A stretch of 64,000 nucleotides of DNA, taken from the IMG/VR virus record IMGVR_UViG_3300033562_000245, positions 32,001 through 96,000 of that record; one strand, written 5' to 3'. Made by a program: the position numbers and the translations under genes. Positions 9,642 through 58,587 of the stretch are shown here, one piece after another. Below the pieces are notes generated by a model that saw only the letters and a list, made by a program, of their open reading frames with translations, had not been told where the DNA came from and made no database searches. Position 1 is the first letter of the stretch, and each line of letters starts with the position of its first letter. The stretch is from a virus.

Positions 9642-9648
9642 GTAGGTC

Positions 9649-9656
9649 TATATTAC
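9649..9656 (+). promoter_or_regulatory. TATATTAC motif (phiKZ-type early promoter element)
   Basis: Exact match to the known phiKZ early consensus; the 14-mer taggtctatattac recurs at 57189-57202. Confidence 0.45.
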
Positions 9657-9782
9657 TTTAATGACTGGATAATAGAATTTCTCTATTCTTGACAAATTTG
9701 CCGATCCCAAAGTTATTGAAGAGGCCGGAGAAAACTTGAAGGCTTCGATTAAGATTACTTATGTAACCAAATAGTCCACCGT

Positions 9783-9814
9783 GTACAGAGCGGGTGTTCG
9801 CACCCGCTCTGTAC
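9783..9814. terminator. Terminator-like hairpin
   Basis: 14-bp stem gtacagagcgggtg/cacccgctctgtac with TTCG loop. Confidence 0.7.
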
Positions 9815-10001
9815 TGTTGTATTTAATTTTTTAAAAGAAAGGAGACTACCATGCATATATTCGTACTTGTTATAATCCTTATGTAGATCGATCTAGCCCT
9901 CATCAAAAAAATAAACGATGAGAGGGCTAGAGCAAGAAAAGAATCGGCTGCTTTTCGAAATACAAAAGCAGTTCGATACTCTCAAAGAAAGTTAACCCAG
10001 T

Positions 10002-10024
10002 AAGGCCCCCTTTTAGGGGGCCTT
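10002..10024. terminator. Terminator-like hairpin
   Basis: aaggccccct-ttt-agggggcctt. Confidence 0.55.
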
Positions 10025-10106
10025 TACACCTAACGAGTTTTATTTTTTCTGTTTCTATCTTATAGGATCTCATTAATACCGAACCACTATAAAAAAGGAA
10101 TGGCCG

Positions 10107-11624
10107 ATGACATTTAAAGGACTAGAAACCTTATTAAATACAACCGATACTAAACTTGGCTTTGCAATGGAAAAAGCTATACAGCCCTTATGCGACGTCA
10201 GGGATGCTGAACCGGACGGCAACAAACGTTCTGATCTCATGAGAGATATTCTTCCTGGTGTTATAAAGAATTTAACATCGGTTATGGCCGATTATTATAA
10301 GGTTCCATTTGCTATAAAAGATTATCCTAACTCACAGGATGCTTACTTCTTGCCTAGATTCAAGTACGGAAGTAGATTAGAAAAAACATTAACCGATAGA
10401 TGGTATCAAAAAACATCTATAAAAACAAATACAGCAGATGGGCTTTCTAAGTTAAATGATTCTCTGCTTCATGATATATATTTAGATAACCCTGATTTAG
10501 ATGATAAAGATGTTTTAGCAGGATTCTCATTCGATGTAGTAATAGACTTCGTTGGATTTTTGAACTCATCCGAAGAGATTACTGTAGGTATAGAGGATTT
10601 TACAGCAGCAGAAGTGGTTGCTTTTATACTACACGAATTTGGTCATTTTATCAGTATGTGTAAAAGATTTTCTCAGACCAAACTGTCATTACGAGTCGCT
10701 AAGGAGCATTATAGTTATTTCCTAAAATACGCAGAGCCTGAAGAGAAAAAGAAATTTATAGATCATCAAATTAAAATGTTCGGTGAGGATAAGTATATTC
10801 CAAAAGAACACTTAGAATTAGCACAAAAAATTGCTATAGTAGAAAAAGAAGTTAAAAGTTCTATTCTTGATATACCTGGTGACGTTCTAAGAAATATTCT
10901 TTACACAATAGGTGTATTGGTTATAGTAGGAAATAATATCTTAGACTCTATTCTCGAGATGGTCATTACAAAAGGGTTTACAAATAGTCTGTTGGAAATA
11001 GCCAGTATTAGGTACCAAAAAGACGACGATTACTTATCTAACAATCGACAAATGAGTTTAAAAGAAACGGAAGCCGATTCGTATGCTGCACACCACGGGT
11101 ACGGCGGGGCTTTATCTTCAGGTTTGTCTAAACTACAACAAGCAGGTCGGCTGACAATGTTCTTTACGAAAGGTGCTAGACAATCGAAATATCTATATTA
11201 CCTTAGTACTTTTGTAGACGCTACGGTTACGACTATCACGAACGAAGAAGATATGACCGGTCTATATACATACGAACCGTTGGTTGCTCGTTTAACTACC
11301 ATTAGATCAGAAACAGTTAAATGTCTTAAGGATGCCAAATTACCAAGAGAAATATCAAATAAATATTTATCTCAGCTTGACGAGATAGAAAGAAATATTA
11401 AAGCCGCGAAAACTAAGCATATGCTTCCTGGTATTATTAATAGTTTGATTTCTGTAATTGCATATATTAACCCTATATATTTTGTCACAGCAGCAGGGTT
11501 TCTACTGTTTACAAATAAGACTCCTGGTATGGGCAAGCTTTTAAAACAAATAGAACTACTAAAAAATAATGATATATATGTAGCATCAGCTAAATTTAGT
11601 TCGATGTTAGAAAGGAAACAATAA
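10107..11624 (+). CDS. Virion-associated zinc metallopeptidase-like protein (HExxH)
   Basis: FTAAEVVAFILHEFGH plus downstream ETEADSYAAHHGYG, an M48-like arrangement; lies in the head gene cluster. Confidence 0.65.
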   Translation: MTFKGLETLLNTTDTKLGFAMEKAIQPLCDVRDAEPDGNKRSDLMRDILPGVIKNLTSVMADYYKVPFAIKDYPNSQDAYFLPRFKYGSRLEKTLTDRWYQKTSIKTNTADGLSKLNDSLLHDIYLDNPDLDDKDVLAGFSFDVVIDFVGFLNSSEEITVGIEDFTAAEVVAFILHEFGHFISMCKRFSQTKLSLRVAKEHYSYFLKYAEPEEKKKFIDHQIKMFGEDKYIPKEHLELAQKIAIVEKEVKSSILDIPGDVLRNILYTIGVLVIVGNNILDSILEMVITKGFTNSLLEIASIRYQKDDDYLSNNRQMSLKETEADSYAAHHGYGGALSSGLSKLQQAGRLTMFFTKGARQSKYLYYLSTFVDATVTTITNEEDMTGLYTYEPLVARLTTIRSETVKCLKDAKLPREISNKYLSQLDEIERNIKAAKTKHMLPGIINSLISVIAYINPIYFVTAAGFLLFTNKTPGMGKLLKQIELLKNNDIYVASAKFSSMLERKQ

Positions 11625-36735: not shown

Positions 36736-38162
36736 GGTAAACTCCTCTGTTAATGATTATACACATTATTGTGTACATAAATAACGATCACTTAAGAATG
36801 CCTAGCTTAGCACAGAGGATAGTTACTGTCCTAAGTGATCTCGTTTTGGTGTAAAATCCTTTATTCTACACCTGAATGTGTGACGGTTAATAAAAGTAAG
36901 GCGATTAACTCTCTAAAGACATTTTAACAATAGACTTATGCGGTTACTTAGAACCTGTTATTTTTGAATCTCACATGTAAAGTAATTTACATTCTGGATT
37001 CCTTTAATTGTCATTGTTAAAATTCTCGGTATAAACCCGTTCGTTTAACTTCAAGCAATAATTATAATATCACCCTCTTCTTTCTTATAAGTATATACAC
37101 TTCGACTGGACGTCGAGGTATAATTATGTCTCCTGTAACATAAACATATACTTACAATGACTGGGCGAGAGTTAATCTATTACCTTACATTCCTCACTAA
37201 AATATAAAACTACAACTTGGCACTCTGTAGTATATAAAAACTATAACATCATAGATGTATCTAATTTCTGAATCTCGATTATCGGCATAAACCTTGTTGG
37301 ATTCTCTTAATTAGTTTCGTATACACTGACCAGAGGTCGTTACCGCTAAGTACGTTTGTATTCCCTAAATTCCAAATCATCGCTGATTATAGAAAAACTT
37401 TATTCATAAGTATCTGTAAAATAATTAACAATCAATTTATTAAATTAATAAACCAAGGTAAAACAGTAGACACTTATAATTACTTTTGTGAGTACCAAGC
37501 TGTAGTTAAATTCATTATAACCCTTTCTAAATAATCGTAACTTAACTTTATTTTTTATATTAGTAATATTACTTAGTTACGGCAAATTCTTTACTTTCTC
37601 CAACACTTAACTATAATAAACTTAACTATATCCCTACATATCATACCAAACAATAATTATTATTTTACATTTGTTTTAAAAATCATCAATACGACAATGA
37701 AGCGACCACAAAGTGGTCGCATCAGTTTTGATTAAGAGATAATAGCCGGTTAGTGTTCCTACAGAACACTAATCCGGCGATAGTTTAACCCAAATGAGAT
37801 ATTTTATTATACCATATCAGTCGTACGCCTACGGCTTCCTCCTTAGTTGGTATAATAAAAATATATATATATTTGTCAGTTTAATTTTAATTGTTTTACT
37901 TAGTCAGTATTGTTTTATTCGTGTGAGGGTTTTAGTTTCTTTTTGAAACTAAAGTAACCCGAATTAGAATAAAATCAGATGATTCTTTTTCCTTCGCTTT
38001 TGCTACGGAAAAGAATTTAAGCTAAAGCTTTTTCTAAACGGTTTACCTTCTGGTACTCAACCGAGCTTCTACGAACCTCTCTGAGTACTTATATACAATG
38101 ATATTGCCATTATTCTCTGACCATCCGGAGCCGGGTCTATGACCCTCTGATGGTATACTCTA

Positions 38163-38192
38163 CTACTCTACTACTACGTAGTAGTAGAGTAG
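38163..38192. repeat. 30-bp perfect palindrome ctactctactactac|gtagtagtagagtag
   Basis: Checked base by base; no loop. Confidence 0.9.
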
Positions 38193-38199
38193 ATAGGGA

Positions 38200-38230
38200 A
38201 CGTGTGTGCGCATGCGCGCGTATATATATA
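38200..38230. repeat. 31-bp alternating purine/pyrimidine tract (Z-DNA-prone)
   Basis: acgtgtgtgcgcatgcgcgcgtatatatata alternates R/Y throughout. Confidence 0.85.
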
Positions 38231-38421
38231 GAACGATGCGTTTATTATATAATTCGTACTCGGCATTACAACTATGAATAGTATAAATTTAAACAATTTA
38301 AAAATCAAACGATAATATTCTGAATTAGTTGCAAAGTATTTACTGTAAAAAAATAATTATCAATGAAGATAATATGCATAAAAAATATACAATAAATTAA
38401 ACTTAAAGGGTGTAGTGAATA

Positions 38422-42624: not shown

Positions 42625-42645
42625 ATATATTACCTAAGTAGAACT
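42625..42645 (+). promoter_or_regulatory. Promoter-like element containing TATATTAC
   Basis: 21-bp atatattacctaagtagaact is identical to 52257-52277. Confidence 0.6.
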
Positions 42646-42773: not shown

Positions 42774-43466
42774 ATGTTAAATACTATTAATTCAAAAGAG
42801 AAAAACAATAAGACGTTTAGAATTTTTCTCATGTTAACCGCATTAAGTTATATAGTTGTTGGGTGCGCGTCATTCAAAAGTTTAGAGAACTATAACAACA
42901 ATGCTCTATTACAAAAGCCACTAGCACAGTTAGTGGAAAATCCTGATTATAAAGAATCTCAACCAGCTGTAATCTCACCTGCGATACCTGATCGCATATA
43001 TCGAAGCTCCGATAGTTCCTTTGTTATCGACGAATCATGTAAAATTATTAAGAAGTTCGAGAAGTTTGCACCGAAATCCTACAGGTGTCCTGGAGGGGCA
43101 CTAACTGTCGGGTATGGCTTTGACATCAAACGTGTTAAACAAAGAAAGATGTCCAAGAGTGAAGCCGATCGGCATTTGAAAAGATTGGTAAGAGATACTA
43201 AATCTTTTATTGAATCTCAATTAAAATACAGTAAATTAACAAACAATCAGATGATAGCTCTGGTATCATTTGTGTATAATGTAGGGGAACCTAATTTTGT
43301 AAAAAGTGATATGTTGCGATTAATAAATAAAAATAAGATTAGCAAAGCTGCTAAAGAATTTAATCGTTGGGTATATGCAGGATCAAAATATAAAAAGAAA
43401 TTAAACGGTCTAGTTAATAGGCGACAAATTGAAAAATCGCTATTCACTAGTTATAAGTATACATAA
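42774..43466 (+). CDS. GH24 lysozyme with lipoprotein signal peptide
   Basis: E-x8-C-x5-T triad (FEKFAPKSYRCPGGALTVGYG), ALVSFVYNVG, FNRWVYAG, GLVNRRQIE; lipobox VVGC. Confidence 0.9.
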   Translation: MLNTINSKEKNNKTFRIFLMLTALSYIVVGCASFKSLENYNNNALLQKPLAQLVENPDYKESQPAVISPAIPDRIYRSSDSSFVIDESCKIIKKFEKFAPKSYRCPGGALTVGYGFDIKRVKQRKMSKSEADRHLKRLVRDTKSFIESQLKYSKLTNNQMIALVSFVYNVGEPNFVKSDMLRLINKNKISKAAKEFNRWVYAGSKYKKKLNGLVNRRQIEKSLFTSYKYT

Positions 43467-52256: not shown

Positions 52257-52277
52257 ATATATTACCTAAGTAGAACT
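52257..52277 (+). promoter_or_regulatory. Promoter-like element containing TATATTAC upstream of the gp67/gp68-like operon
   Basis: Identical 21-mer at 42625; early expression of nvRNAP genes fits phiKZ biology. Confidence 0.6.
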
Positions 52278-55420: not shown

Positions 55421-56935
55421 ATGCATAACGTTATTAAAGCGAAAATGATGCAGGCGATGAATATCGCTTTGTTTCAATCACCTCAGTTCGGGCATTTAGA
55501 TGCCAATCTAAAGTCACGAGTCTATCAAGCATTTATGGCAGATGCTGATACGCTGATTCAACAGACTATTATCCCTAAACATATACAACAAGGTTTAGAC
55601 GATAACATGATCAACAACTATGCTATCATGTATATCAATGAAGCGGTAAAGATTCTGACTCAACAGAACCAATTCAATATCGGCAATATGTATCAGCAAC
55701 AGGGTATGTTTAATTCGGCACAGCAGATCCCTGGCGGACAGTACCAGGTAGCCCAATTTCAAAACATGTTCAACTCACCGATACCGCAGTCTGTACAGTG
55801 CGCGAATCAAATGATGCCAGCGCCTCAGCAAACATTTCAAAATCCGTCAAACAAAGGAGCAGAAAAAATGGTCGTAGTAGAAGATGTCAGCTCATGGGAA
55901 CTTGGTGATTCTGAATCAGTAGTAGTCGACAATCAGATTGTTAGAATTACACGAGTTCCTGCCGAAGTTAACGGAGAGAAAGTGTTTGTTGGCGACGCCA
56001 TTGTAAAATGTTGTGTGTCGGGATACAACGAAGCAATTAAAATCGTTGCCCCTTATATCAAAACTAAGAAGCGTCTGTTGAATATCGATTACATTCAATC
56101 GATCCCTGTTGCAATTGACAATACAATATTTTCTGCCTTGAGAAACGAATATAACTCAAGACTGGAAATACTGGGAGGTCTTCCGACCGTGTCGTCCATG
56201 AAGAAGTTGTTCGATGTTCTATTCGATTTCATGGGAGGCATGTCAGCCAAACAAGCCGAAGAACTAGAACGATATTTTATGTCTATTCTTAGGCCCCTTA
56301 TCAGAAGTACAATTATCCATCCTGATAAACTGCGACAATCAATTATCACCGAAAATCTCAAAGATGTATATGAACTTCTTGATGACATTGAGACTAGAGG
56401 ATATTTTTCGGATTGTGATTTTTATGATAATGTATTGATCATAGTTCTTATGAAAGGACTGATCGATTCTATCGATGCCAACAATTCGTTACTAACGGTC
56501 GACCACCTTGGCTCCAGGTTGGATATGATCAGATCAATGTACCATCATAAAGTAATCAATACAAATCTAGATAGCCAGTATTTCTTTGTATCGGAAGAGG
56601 ACGCGGTGAAAGATCTTACTCTCAAGAATAAGTATATTGAAGTATGGGATGCTCTCAATAAACTTGTTGTTTGTTACACAACATCGGGCGTCATTTACTC
56701 AAATATCGTTCCGAGTGATATGCAGTATAAATGCGGCGAACCTGGGTTTGAACCGTACGCTTTCACAGAACCGAAGAATATCATAGAAGGACTAATTTCA
56801 CGTACACATCCAAATACATATTATCGGAAAAATAATATCGTATTGGAATTTTCCAAATTTAAGAAGATCGATTGCGTTTACGGTAGAATTTTGGATAAAT
56901 CTGTTAGAATTGCCGCAAATGAAATCGAGTACTAG
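55421..56935 (+). CDS. Hypothetical protein with Q/N/P-rich segment (in the phiKZ gp69/PicA position)
   Basis: 504 aa, directly after the gp68-like gene; identity inferred from synteny only. Confidence 0.35.
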   Translation: MHNVIKAKMMQAMNIALFQSPQFGHLDANLKSRVYQAFMADADTLIQQTIIPKHIQQGLDDNMINNYAIMYINEAVKILTQQNQFNIGNMYQQQGMFNSAQQIPGGQYQVAQFQNMFNSPIPQSVQCANQMMPAPQQTFQNPSNKGAEKMVVVEDVSSWELGDSESVVVDNQIVRITRVPAEVNGEKVFVGDAIVKCCVSGYNEAIKIVAPYIKTKKRLLNIDYIQSIPVAIDNTIFSALRNEYNSRLEILGGLPTVSSMKKLFDVLFDFMGGMSAKQAEELERYFMSILRPLIRSTIIHPDKLRQSIITENLKDVYELLDDIETRGYFSDCDFYDNVLIIVLMKGLIDSIDANNSLLTVDHLGSRLDMIRSMYHHKVINTNLDSQYFFVSEEDAVKDLTLKNKYIEVWDALNKLVVCYTTSGVIYSNIVPSDMQYKCGEPGFEPYAFTEPKNIIEGLISRTHPNTYYRKNNIVLEFSKFKKIDCVYGRILDKSVRIAANEIEY

Positions 56936-56962
56936 ATTTAAATAATTAATACGTATTAGTTA

Positions 56963-56988
56963 ACCCACCGGATGCGCATCCGGTGGGT
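56963..56988. terminator. 26-bp perfect palindrome, terminator-like
   Basis: acccaccggatgc|gcatccggtgggt. Confidence 0.65.
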
Positions 56989-57194
56989 ATTATAAATTAT
57001 TAATAAAAGGATTTTAAAATGGATATTAAAGATATTTTCAAAGGATTTTGCATTTTTATGCACAAAAAGAACATATAAAAAAATAAGTTATCTTTAAATA
57101 GTTTAAAAGTAATAAGACCAACACACTTAATTTTGCACATTGATTAAAGTAACGATAGAAGCTCGTTATTTGAGGATCATTGTATTGATAGGTC

Positions 57195-57202
57195 TATATT
57201 AC
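57195..57202 (+). promoter_or_regulatory. TATATTAC motif upstream of the candidate ncRNA
   Basis: Exact motif; the 14-mer is shared with 9643-9656. Confidence 0.5.
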
Positions 57203-57204
57203 CT

Positions 57205-57909
57205 TTTTGGGATTTGGGGAATAATCGGATAACCCTGATATCGACATGAGTACTGCAGTACTAAGGTGTTGATAGCTCCACATAGACGGCCTCGCCAACT
57301 ACCGATTAAAAGTTAGGAGAGAGCTAAATGCCGAGGAAGTCTTCTTACGAAGGCGGGTATGTATGTGCACGTATATACTTTAATAACTGTTACTGAGCAC
57401 TCAAGTTACCCTGATGCATTAGGCAATGGACGGGTTTATAAAGTGTTCCACATTCGTAAGTTTCGTCGATGCTCCGAATGTGAACAGGGGTGTTGGTAAA
57501 AACAACATCGCCTATCGACTTCTAAAAGCTCACTGGACGGGGATGAGAATGTCGAGCGGGTTAATTGGGCTACCATTAACCTCCCCAAACAAAGCGACGG
57601 CCGCAGGGGTGAGAACGCCAGTCGCGTTTCGACGCATAAGCTTTAGTAGCATTAAATTGTGAAAAGCCCGTTGGAATGCCCTTGTATACATCGGTATAGA
57701 TAAAGAGCACGCGAGTTACTTTGTCTATTCCACACCGAAAGGTCAAAACATAGAGTTCGCGGATCTCCTGTATTCTTAGAATAGAAGCTTGAACATTTGT
57801 TCTTGCTAATTACCTCTTGTTACACGAGAGGTAGGTTCGACAAAGTCGGAAAATCGTTTTAAGGTATAGGAAAGTATGTAGCTAGCCCACGGCGTTCGCC
57901 GTGGGCTAG
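57205..57909 (+). ncRNA. Candidate large (~700 nt) structured non-coding RNA
   Basis: Visibly GC-richer, no credible ORF, many stems with G-U pairs favouring the + strand, UUCG/GAAA loops, bounded by a promoter motif and a hairpin. Confidence 0.55.
57882..57909 (+). terminator. Terminator-like hairpin closing the ncRNA candidate
   Basis: ctagcccacggc/gccgtgggctag 12-bp stem. Confidence 0.65.
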
Positions 57910-57945
57910 TCTATAATTAATTAACGTTAATCATCGGAGGTTACC

Positions 57946-58587
57946 ATGCAAAAAGAATATTGTGCTGACTTAATCCAGCTGTTAGGTACTCTCCCTAACG
58001 ATATGATTTGGATTACAGACGAACATCTTAAAACAAAGTACATAAGTCCTAATGTATTGCTTATAAGAGGCATCTCTCAAGAAGAGGCGCTGGAAGAAAG
58101 ATTCGAAGATAAATTCACACCAAATTCACAAGAGATTATTTCTAAAATCATGGAAAGTGTGAAGTTCAGTTTAGAAAATAACACTCCTCACAAATTAAAT
58201 ACAATAGCCAGCGAAATGTACAGAAGTGATGGAACGATAATGGGCGTCGAAATATCGTTTCAAATTAAAATGCAGGACGGAAAGGTTAAGTATATTGCTG
58301 GGGTCACGAGAGATGTTAGTGATAGAATATTGACGGATAAACTTAATGTTACTATAGAATTATCCAAAATGTTTTCTGATAAACTAAGCCAACCTATACA
58401 TGTTCTCAACGGAATTTCTACATTGATAGGAGATATGGTTCCAGCAAAATATGTGGAGTTAATGCAAAAACAACTAGATACTCTAACAGAAGTTGTTAGA
58501 GCTGTACAGCGTGTTAACTATGAAGATCCATTAACGGATCCTTTGTACTTGGCGAGGTTAAATAAGTTAAACGATATTAATTTATAA
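57946..58587 (+). CDS. PAS-domain protein with degenerate HisKA-like helix pair
   Basis: IWITDEHLKTKYISPNVLLIRG...E..RSDGTIMGVEIS...YIAGVTRDVSDR is a typical PAS/PAC; followed by ELSKMFSDKLSQPIHVLNG; no HATPase domain. Confidence 0.85.
   Translation: MQKEYCADLIQLLGTLPNDMIWITDEHLKTKYISPNVLLIRGISQEEALEERFEDKFTPNSQEIISKIMESVKFSLENNTPHKLNTIASEMYRSDGTIMGVEISFQIKMQDGKVKYIAGVTRDVSDRILTDKLNVTIELSKMFSDKLSQPIHVLNGISTLIGDMVPAKYVELMQKQLDTLTEVVRAVQRVNYEDPLTDPLYLARLNKLNDINL

What the first reader, a model, noticed from the sequence alone, without database searches (positions are those of the whole stretch)
57189..57909. Candidate ~700-nt ornate ncRNA with its own phage promoter motif and terminator
Seen: a TATATTAC motif (57195) is followed by ~680 nt that are GC-richer than the flanks, lack a credible ORF and end in a 12-bp hairpin (57882-57909). 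Stems: 57444-57456/57475-57486 (12 bp, one bulge); ggtgttg/caacatc (57489-57509); gcgac/gtcgc enclosing ggUGAGAAc (57594-57625) with a second UGAGAA at ~57544; gcgt-UUCG-acgc (57624-57635); acc-GAAA-ggt (57734-57743); a 10-bp stem at 57811-57833; ttcgac/gtcgga (57836-57850); and a long-range helix gacgggttt/aagcccgtt (57429-57437 with 57664-57672). The G-U pairs in these stems form only on the + strand. Established: phages carry large structured RNAs of this size (GOLLD, ROOL). Inference: an early-expressed large RNA, possibly of a new class, with two T-loop-like motifs. I could not match it to tmRNA, RNase P or intron consensus.
Basis: partly seen in the sequence, partly recalled or inferred. 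Interest (0 to 1): 0.85.

Follow-up and report, generated by a model that had tools for sequence, protein, structure and literature searches.

The report
Candidate large noncoding RNA, jumbo phage
A 1-kb gap in a phiKZ-like giant phage holds a gene-like unit (phage promoter motif, about 700 non-coding bases, gene-end hairpin) that probably makes a folded RNA of no known family, but no relative's DNA could be fetched, so it stays an unproven candidate.

Summary
The sequence features are real. A TATATTAC promoter-type motif sits at 57195. About 680 GC-richer bases follow, with no coding signal in any frame or genetic code. The unit ends in a 12-bp GC hairpin (57882-57909) of the class that closes this phage's genes. 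The window comes from a 118-kb IMG/VR fragment of a deep-branching phiKZ-like jumbo phage. The unit lies just after the operon holding the PHIKZ123 (nvRNAP subunit) ortholog.

Folding is better than chance on the + strand only. Without the hairpin, z is -4.2 on + and -1.6 on -. The excess is concentrated in a 113-nt four-way junction (57763-57875, z -5.2). The first 560 nt (z -2.9) are only about 1 sd beyond this phage's mRNAs (mean -1.4, sd 1.5).

No Rfam family matches. An RNase P model that rings in 11 of 14 control genomes finds nothing here.

No homologous DNA could be obtained. Covariation is therefore untested.

Best reading: an independently transcribed structured ncRNA of a new class (about 0.45). 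Rivals are a long cis-acting leader of the PAS gene, and decayed or spacer DNA. Earlier first-stage notes of this scan flagged this same stretch; none concerned other DNA.

The parts
56963..56988 (+). GC hairpin (11-bp stem) 28 nt after the stop of the 504-aa gene. It is the end of the upstream operon (385-aa gene, PHIKZ123-type nvRNAP subunit gene, 504-aa gene).
   Evidence: (I2)
56989..57189 (.). AT-rich spacer (GC 0.23-0.26). It contains a 19-codon sORF (57019-57078) with an AAGGA Shine-Dalgarno-like motif.
57190..57202 (+). Promoter-type motif AGGTCTATATTAC. The core TATATTAC is at 57195-57202. If the motif is centred near -10, as in phiKZ-like early promoters, the start site falls near 57209.
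   Evidence: PMC7598289 for the -10 placement
57209..57762 (+). Non-coding body, 5' and central part: a chain of hairpins. Pairs with probability 0.89 or more: 57240-57273, 57355-57380, 57395-57448, 57449-57482, 57489-57509, 57559-57581, 57624-57679, 57696-57728. A possible closing helix joins 57213-57220 to 57582-57589.
   Evidence: z -2.93 on +, -1.32 on -
57328..57396 (+). 22-codon sORF with GGAG 8 nt upstream. It is the only sORF with a Shine-Dalgarno motif inside the unit. Possibly chance.
57544..57615 (+). Two UGAGAA motifs (57544-57549 and 57610-57615) flanking hairpin 57559-57581. Each lies in GGGG(A)UGAGAAYG, and each can sit in the loop of an NCGAC/GUCGN hairpin (57515-57555 and 57594-57625).
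   Evidence: The motif count is not clearly above chance (7 against 3.0 expected in the window at up to 2 mismatches).
57577..57584 (+). UAACCUCC, perfectly complementary to the PAS gene's Shine-Dalgarno region GGAGGUUA (57936-57943).
57763..57875 (+). 3' domain: a four-way junction. A 16-bp closing stem encloses three hairpins (57786-57807, 57810-57834, 57836-57850).
   Evidence: z -5.22, 0 of 200 shuffles as good; rank 22 of 11,840 strand-windows genome-wide, most of the others being gene-end hairpins
57882..57909 (+). 12-bp GC hairpin with a UUCG loop and an A/U-rich tail. It belongs to the phage's gene-end hairpin class and is the presumed 3' end or terminator.
   Evidence: (I4)
57946..58587 (+). 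Downstream 213-aa PAS-domain gene, starting 37 nt after the hairpin. No TATATTAC motif lies between them.
   Evidence: PAS_9, E 4.6e-7

Best explanation
The unit is most likely a stand-alone RNA gene of a deep-branching phiKZ-like jumbo phage.

Proposed steps:
1. A phage RNA polymerase starts near 57209 from the AGGTCTATATTAC promoter. By analogy with phiKZ this is probably the injected virion enzyme acting early in infection.
2. It transcribes about 700 nt of the + strand.
3. It stops at, or the RNA is trimmed back to, the GC hairpin 57882-57909.
4. The product has no reading frame. It folds into a chain of hairpins and a compact 3' four-way junction next to the terminal hairpin.
5. I infer that it acts in trans as a protein-binding scaffold or decoy rather than by antisense pairing.

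Shown here: the unit is non-coding; its two boundary motifs belong to recurrent classes of this genome; folding excess is specific to the + strand; no known family matches.

Inferred: transcription itself, its timing, the RNA ends and the function.
For: - Non-coding. There is no ORF over 78 aa and no alternative-code ORF. The codon score is negative in all frames. ORFs and six-frame read-through translations hit nothing credible in Pfam or PHROGs (best E 0.05). The 118-aa TGA-read-through frame has no relative among 1.84 billion protein representatives.
- Promoter. TATATTAC is about 4-fold enriched in intergenic DNA and co-oriented with downstream genes. The same 8-mer is about 3-fold enriched on phiKZ's forward strand. 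It precedes the operon with the PHIKZ123 ortholog both here (52258) and in phiKZ (120657).
- The extended variant AGGTCTATATTAC occurs three times in the record. Each copy is followed by non-coding, hairpin-ended sequence.
- The 3' hairpin is one of 26 gene-end hairpins.
- Folding. The body gives z -4.19 on + and -1.62 on -. After regression on GC, the + strand window is the 2nd most negative of 590 strand-windows in the genome, while the - strand is ordinary. The 3' domain gives z -5.22.
- GC is raised to 0.42-0.49.
- BLAST of the RNA against the 118-kb record finds no antisense partner.
Against: - No homolog DNA was obtained, so there is no covariation test.
- No RNA-seq could be examined.
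- Most of the body (57205-57762, z -2.9) is only about 1 sd beyond this phage's coding controls, and one coding control reached z -5.2.
- Few canonical tetraloops appear in the predicted ensemble.
- Five cultured relatives and phiKZ have no large gap after the PHIKZ123 ortholog. They give no BLAST or covariance-model match. The element may therefore be young or lineage-specific.
- The PAS gene, 37 nt downstream, has no recognisable promoter of its own. That fits a leader as well as a separate gene.
Confidence: 0.45

Rival explanations
1. A very long, structured cis-acting 5' leader of the PAS / multi-wHTH operon. Transcription from 57195 would run into the PAS gene. The GC hairpin would act as an attenuator or 3'-stabiliser. 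The anti-SD 8-mer at 57577 could mask the PAS ribosome-binding site.
For: - No TATATTAC-type promoter lies in the 37 nt between the hairpin and the PAS start.
- UAACCUCC (57577-57584) is a perfect 8-nt complement of the PAS Shine-Dalgarno region.
- The other two AGGTCTATATTAC promoters are also followed by hairpin-containing non-coding stretches before the next gene.
- Many genes here start 20-120 nt after a gene-end hairpin with no promoter motif, so read-through of such hairpins seems common.
Against: - phiKZ 5' UTRs are typically 31-40 nt (PMC8244752). A leader of about 740 nt would be extraordinary.
- phiKZ middle and late promoters have almost no recognisable consensus (PMC7598289). The lack of a visible PAS promoter is therefore weak evidence.
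- I found no antiterminator alternative to the 12-bp hairpin.
- One 8-mer complement in 700 nt is expected by chance at the few-percent level.
Confidence: 0.25
2. Non-functional DNA: a decayed gene or mobile-element remnant (for example a dead homing-endonuclease cassette), or simple spacer. It would retain a promoter and a terminator, and its folding signal would be largely fortuitous.
For: - The element is absent from the syntenic position in phiKZ and three cultured relatives.
- Homing-endonuclease genes sit next to RNAP genes in relatives.
- Folding of the first 560 nt is not clearly beyond the coding controls.
- GC differs from the surroundings, as expected for foreign DNA.
Against: - No protein remnant was detectable: six-frame Pfam and PHROGs, ORFs, and phmmer of the longest read-through frame against 1.84 billion proteins.
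- The folding excess is strand-specific and the 3' domain is strongly structured. Decay does not predict either.
- Phage genomes usually purge 1 kb of junk (general knowledge, not tested here).
Confidence: 0.2
3. An RNase P-like or tRNA-elbow-binding RNA. GAGGAAGUC (57333) and GAAGCUU (57784) would form a P4-like pseudoknot. The two UGAGAA motifs flanking hairpin 57559-57581 would act as the J11/12-P12-J12/13 T-loop pair.
For: The order 'UGAGAA, hairpin, UGAGAA' and a CR-I-like GAGGAAGUC exist in the sequence. An earlier first-stage note raised the same idea.
Against: - RF00010 finds nothing at E<=10 in the whole record, yet rings in 11 of 14 control genomes, including type B and archaeal RNase P.
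- cmscan of all Rfam families at E<=10 on 551 and 1101 nt gives no RNase P hit.
- The proposed P4 3' strand is buried in the best-supported domain of the RNA (pair probabilities 0.5-1.0).
- There is no P3 hairpin between the putative P2 and CR-I.
- CR-I has two As instead of three.
- No tRNA gene occurs in the 118 kb.
Confidence: 0.03
4. A DNA-level element, such as a protein-binding or replication/packaging site, rather than an RNA.
For: Several perfect DNA palindromes lie in the region, for example the hairpins at 57244-57267 and 57357-57378.
Against: - The region has no iterons or tandem repeats.
- It is GC-rich rather than AT-rich.
- The strand asymmetry of folding argues for an RNA.
- A better candidate for a DNA-level hub is the 1.7-kb gap at 36736-38421.
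Confidence: 0.07

Closest known systems
GOLLD, ROOL and OLE large ornate RNAs (Rfam; cryo-EM in PMC12286853)
   Same: They are 580-800-nt non-coding RNAs of unknown function. From my own knowledge, GOLLD and ROOL are often carried by phages or prophages. They are GC-richer than their surroundings and have their own transcription signals.
   Different: There is no covariance-model match at Rfam gathering scores or at E<=10. Those families are defined by hundreds of covarying homologs and many tertiary motifs. Here there is one sequence, few canonical tetraloops, and strong folding only in the 3' 113 nt.
Bacterial RNase P RNA (RF00010, RF00011)
   Same: Comparable size range. It has a CR-I-like GAGGAAGUC, a possible 7-bp long-range pairing, and two UGAGAA motifs around a hairpin that recall the S-domain T-loops.
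   Different: The model test failed while the controls passed. The P4 partner is occupied in the best-supported domain. There is no P3. No tRNA genes are present in the fragment.
phiKZ early transcription units and phiKZ non-coding RNAs (PMC7598289, PMC8244752, PMC13282480)
   Same: It has the same TATATTAC core motif. It has the same neighbourhood, directly after the operon with the PHIKZ123 nvRNAP subunit ortholog. Units end in hairpin terminators.
   Different: phiKZ has an 80-nt gap at this position and 5' UTRs of 31-40 nt. In the papers read here, its non-coding RNAs are mentioned only in general terms. No element of about 700 nt turned up in phiKZ or in the five relatives examined.

Membership tests
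RNase P RNA (bacterial type A/B, archaeal) | Match to the family covariance model (conserved regions CR-I to CR-V in the P1-P18 scaffold) | tested here: not met
   RF00010 gives no match at E<=10 in the whole 118-kb record, while 11 of 14 control genomes ring, including B. subtilis and Sulfolobus. All-Rfam cmscan at E<=10 on the region gives no RNase P hit.
RNase P RNA (bacterial type A/B, archaeal) | P4 long-range helix between CR-I and CR-V, free to form | tested here: inconclusive
   AAG(U)CUUC at 57337-57344 can pair with GAAGCUU at 57784-57790. The latter lies inside the four-way junction, which has z -5.2 and pair probabilities of 0.5-1.0. There is no covariation to decide.
RNase P RNA (bacterial type A/B, archaeal) | Substrates at hand (phage tRNA genes) | tested here: not met
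   ARAGORN finds 0 tRNA or tmRNA genes in the window and in the whole 118 kb. The record is only about 46% of the genome.
GOLLD / ROOL / OLE / HEARO / raiA and other large Rfam RNAs | Match to the family covariance model | tested here: not met
   No hit at gathering scores over 64 kb. No hit at E<=10 over the region.
Group I / group II introns | Covariance-model match, and insertion within a host gene with flanking exons | tested here: not met
   No Intron_gpI, group-II or D1-D4 hit at E<=10. The upstream 504-aa protein is full length against its 515-aa homolog. The PAS domain downstream is complete from profile position 1.
tmRNA | tRNA-like domain plus tag reading frame | tested here: not met
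   ARAGORN finds none. No Rfam tmRNA hit.
phiKZ-type early transcription unit | Conserved AT-rich motif of about 10 nt centred near -10, recurring upstream of co-oriented operons, including nvRNAP subunit genes | tested here: met
   TATATTAC has 9 of its 20 copies in the 11.5% intergenic DNA. Six copies lie 56-451 nt before co-oriented genes, one of them before the PHIKZ123-ortholog operon. In phiKZ it occurs 33 times on the forward strand against 10 for the control pattern, and it precedes PHIKZ121-125. The definition of the motif class is from PMC7598289. Use by the virion RNAP is not testable here.
Structured ncRNA in general | Compensatory base changes across homologs | not testable with these tools
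Interdigitated T-loop module (RNase P S-domain, T-box stem I) | Two U-N-N-R-A pentaloops that interlock in three dimensions | not testable with these tools
   UGAGA fits the pentanucleotide pattern at 57544 and 57610. Sequence alone cannot show the fold. The T-box model does not match.

The most novel reading that the evidence does not exclude
A new class of large (about 700 nt) structured RNA made early in infection by a deep-branching, probably nucleus-forming phiKZ-like jumbo phage. It would be encoded next to the nvRNAP operon and would work as an RNP scaffold or decoy, possibly together with the adjacent PAS and four-fold winged-helix proteins. No comparable large RNA turned up in phiKZ or the five cultured relatives examined here.
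Probability: 0.3. Interest if true: 0.7.

Novelty: new variant of a known kind. Interest (0 to 1): 0.45.

Why it matters
Jumbo phages that build their own transcription machinery, and in many cases a nucleus-like compartment, are described almost entirely through their proteins. In the papers read here, phiKZ non-coding RNAs are mentioned only in general terms.

A dedicated RNA gene of about 700 nt, probably expressed early and placed beside the RNA polymerase genes, would add an RNA component to that biology. Possible roles include decoy, scaffold, or control of polymerase or translation. It would also add another large structured RNA to a short list.

If it is instead a 740-nt leader, it would be an unusually elaborate cis-regulator for a phage sensor-domain gene.

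At present it is a single sequence with moderate statistical support. Its main value is as a well-delimited target for RNA-seq and for comparison with one known relative.

Tried and rejected
Homolog hunts that all came back empty:
- blastn of the RNA and tblastn of both upstream proteins against 50,697 GenBank phages.
- The search for related loci with the 504-aa protein, the RNAP subunit, their alignments A1 and A2, the second RNAP subunit, the PAS protein and the 722-aa protein, in viral, metagenome and genome collections.
- Exact-pattern scans with the double UGAGAA motif, a 3'-domain 20-mer and a central 23-mer.
- A covariance model (R1) of the 3' domain, and BLAST of the RNA. In the phage's own record each found only the RNA itself; in five cultured relatives they gave only chance-level hits (E>0.5).

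Protein searches found only one close relative. P0002 (52% identical) and P0004 (84% identical) both lie on one 50,046-bp Logan contig.

Readings rejected:
- A recoded gene.
- A pseudogene remnant.
- An internal duplication (best self-alignment score 29 against a shuffled maximum of 35).
- RNase P.
- An intron, tmRNA or riboswitch.

BLASTP could not establish positional orthology of the 504-aa or 722-aa proteins with PHIKZ124.

Full report
CONTEXT

The window is bases 32001-96000 of a 118,498-bp IMG/VR virus record that CheckV rates 46% complete. That implies a jumbo phage of roughly 250 kb.

The phage carries split multisubunit RNA polymerase genes of the phiKZ type:
- 39469-40878 matches phrog_2962.
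- 50439-51125 matches phrog_3233.
- 53755-55329 matches phrog_2943.

In phiKZ itself, phrog_2943 is PHIKZ123. From my own knowledge this is a subunit of the non-virion polymerase.

The phage is very distant from cultured relatives. The best tblastn identity to any GenBank phage is about 35% for the most conserved subunit. The PHIKZ123 ortholog gives no tblastn hit at 1e-5.

The finding lies in the 1010-nt gap 56936-57945. Upstream is a 504-aa gene of unknown function. Downstream is a 213-aa PAS-domain gene. All are on the + strand.

THE OBSERVATION

- TATATTAC is at 57195.
- Each listed stem can pair as stated.
- UGAGAA occurs at 57544 and 57610.
- The 12-bp hairpin with a UUCG loop is at 57882-57909.
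- GC rises to 0.42-0.49 between 57200 and 57800. It is 0.23-0.26 in the 200 nt before the motif.

IS IT NON-CODING?

Yes, as far as sequence can show.
- The longest ORF is 78 aa. No reassignment of TGA, TAG or TAA opens the region.
- I trained a codon-usage log-odds score on this genome's long genes. Taken as the best of six frames, it is negative in every 240-nt window from 56840 to 57800. The 5th percentile of genic windows is +0.106.
- The ORFs, and six-frame translations read through stops with X, match nothing credible in Pfam or PHROGs (best E 0.05).
- The 78-aa ORF shares no words with any of 5.8 billion proteins.
- The longest read-through frame (118 aa under table 4) has no relative among 1.84 billion cluster representatives.
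- Only one sORF with a Shine-Dalgarno motif lies inside the unit: 22 codons at 57328-57396.

ARE THE BOUNDARIES MEANINGFUL?

The promoter motif:
- TATATTAC occurs 20 times in the record.
- Nine copies fall in the 11.5% of the sequence that I scored as intergenic, against about 2.3 expected.
- Six copies lie 56-451 nt upstream of a co-oriented gene. One of these (52258) heads the operon that contains the PHIKZ123 ortholog.
- In phiKZ the same 8-mer occurs 33 times on the forward strand, against 10 and 12 for the control pattern. One copy (120657) precedes PHIKZ121-125.
- A review states that each RNAP-encoding jumbo phage has a conserved AT-rich motif of about 10 nt. The motif is centred near -10 of early, virion-RNAP-dependent promoters (PMC7598289).
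- Together these make 57195 a credible early promoter, with a start site near 57209.

The extended form AGGTCTATATTAC occurs three times in the record. Each time it is followed by non-coding, hairpin-ended sequence.

The terminal hairpin is one of 26 long GC hairpins in the record. 25 are intergenic and most sit 3-50 nt after a stop codon. The unit therefore ends in the same way as this phage's genes.

IS IT STRUCTURED BEYOND CHANCE?

The full stretch folds at -240.6 kcal/mol with z -6.2. That figure includes the terminator hairpin.

Without the hairpin:
- 57205-57875 gives z -4.19 on the + strand (0 of 60 dinucleotide shuffles as good) and z -1.62 on the - strand.
- Without the 3' domain as well, the values are -2.93 and -1.32.

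By pieces:
- 57205-57394: z -1.6
- 57395-57592: z -2.3
- 57590-57765: z -1.6
- 57763-57875: z -5.2 (0 of 200 shuffles as good)

Controls and genome-wide scans:
- Twelve 671-nt sense-strand coding controls from the same genome gave mean z -1.37, sd 1.46. One reached -5.2.
- In a 721-nt scan regressed on GC, the + strand window here is the second most negative of 590 strand-windows. Its - strand is ordinary.
- In a 113-nt scan the 3' domain ranks 22nd of 11,840. Most windows ahead of it contain gene-end hairpins.

My reading is that there is a real, + strand-specific structural signal. It is carried mainly by a compact four-way junction at the 3' end. The remaining 560 nt are hairpin-rich but not clearly different from this phage's mRNAs.

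The apparent internal repeats are not above a shuffled null.

WHAT IT IS NOT

- No Rfam family reaches its gathering score anywhere in the window.
- At E<=10 the region gives only hairpin-type chance hits. GOLLD, ROOL, OLE, introns, ribozymes, T-box and 6S are all absent.
- ARAGORN finds no tRNA or tmRNA gene in the whole record.

An earlier first-stage note proposed an RNase P-like P4 signature, so I tested it.
- The RF00010 model finds nothing at E<=10 in the whole record. It rings in 11 of 14 control genomes, including type B and archaeal enzymes.
- The proposed 3' strand of P4 (57784-57790) is engaged in the best-supported domain of the RNA.
- No P3 hairpin precedes the CR-I-like GAGGAAGUC.
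- I therefore reject RNase P membership. Only a few percent remain for a functional resemblance.

COMPARATIVE EVIDENCE: NONE OBTAINABLE

Every route to homologous DNA failed (see 'tried and rejected').

Only one close relative exists in 5.8 billion proteins. It is a 50,046-bp Logan contig carrying an 84%-identical PHIKZ123 ortholog and a 52%-identical 504-aa protein.

In phiKZ and in the Xanthomonas and Serratia relatives, the PHIKZ123 ortholog is followed by a 690-730-aa gene, with gaps of 33-80 nt. There is no large non-coding unit. Neither BLAST nor a covariance model of the 3' domain gives more than chance-level hits (E>0.5) in five such genomes. The element is therefore lineage-specific as far as can be seen.

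INTERPRETATION

The best-supported reading is a stand-alone RNA gene of a new class (confidence 0.45).
- It has its own promoter, about 700 nt of non-coding + strand RNA, and a gene-end hairpin.
- I infer a trans-acting, protein-binding role (scaffold or decoy). The reasons are that no antisense partner exists in the 118 kb and that the best-defined part is a compact junction rather than an accessible single strand. This functional step is inference only.

The main rival is a very long cis-acting leader of the PAS gene (0.25).
- It is supported by the lack of a visible promoter in the 37 nt before that gene.
- It is also supported by an 8-nt anti-Shine-Dalgarno match at 57577-57584.
- It is weakened because phiKZ 5' UTRs are typically 31-40 nt (PMC8244752).
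- It is also weakened because middle and late promoters of these phages have almost no recognisable consensus (PMC7598289).

Decayed or spacer DNA remains possible (0.2). A DNA-level element (0.07) and an RNase P-like RNA (0.03) are unlikely.

VERDICT

This is a real, well-delimited, non-coding, gene-like unit with moderate evidence for RNA structure and no known family. It is more modest than the 'ornate' RNA first proposed, and it is unproven without covariation or transcript data. Earlier first-stage notes of this scan flagged the same stretch of the same genome; none concerned other DNA.

Noticed in passing
window 9642-10106: A second promoter-to-hairpin non-coding unit. AGGTCTATATTAC is at 9644-9656. 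About 125 nt later comes a 14-bp GC hairpin (9783-9814) with a T-rich tail. An 11-codon sORF with a strong Shine-Dalgarno motif follows, and a second GC hairpin (10002-10024) precedes the gene at 10107. This is a candidate small RNA or leader.
   Followed up: partly
genome 19319-19475 (window coordinate about -12681, outside the window): The third copy of AGGTCTATATTAC. It is followed by about 120 nt with two hairpins and a T-run before the next gene. The same pattern of a structured leader or small RNA appears after this promoter variant.
   Followed up: partly
window 36736-38421: A 1686-nt gene-free gap (GC 0.31) between genes on opposite strands. It has many near-TATATTAC motifs on both strands and is the strongest folding outlier of the genome. 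It holds a 40-nt perfect palindrome (38156-38195) and an alternating purine-pyrimidine tract (about 38203-38230). It may be a replication origin or a regulatory hub.
   Followed up: partly
window 57577-57584 and 57936-57943: UAACCUCC inside the RNA is a perfect complement of the PAS gene's ribosome-binding region GGAGGUUA.
   Followed up: no
window 42626-42645 and 52258-52277: Two promoters share a longer identical block, TATATTACCTAAGTAGAAC. One lies before the endolysin-like gene at 42774. The other lies before the operon with the PHIKZ123 ortholog. They may form a promoter subclass with a conserved initial transcribed hairpin.
   Followed up: no
window 55421-56935: The 504-aa protein has a Q/N/M/G-rich low-complexity N-terminal third. 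So do the genes that follow the PHIKZ123 ortholog in phiKZ (PHIKZ124) and in Xanthomonas phage RTH11. BLASTP shows no detectable similarity, so positional analogy is possible but unproven.
   Followed up: partly
genome 107337-109928 (window 75337-77928, beyond the window): A 671-nt coding control window in this gene folds with z -5.2. That is as extreme as the 3' domain of the candidate RNA. The cause was not examined.
   Followed up: no
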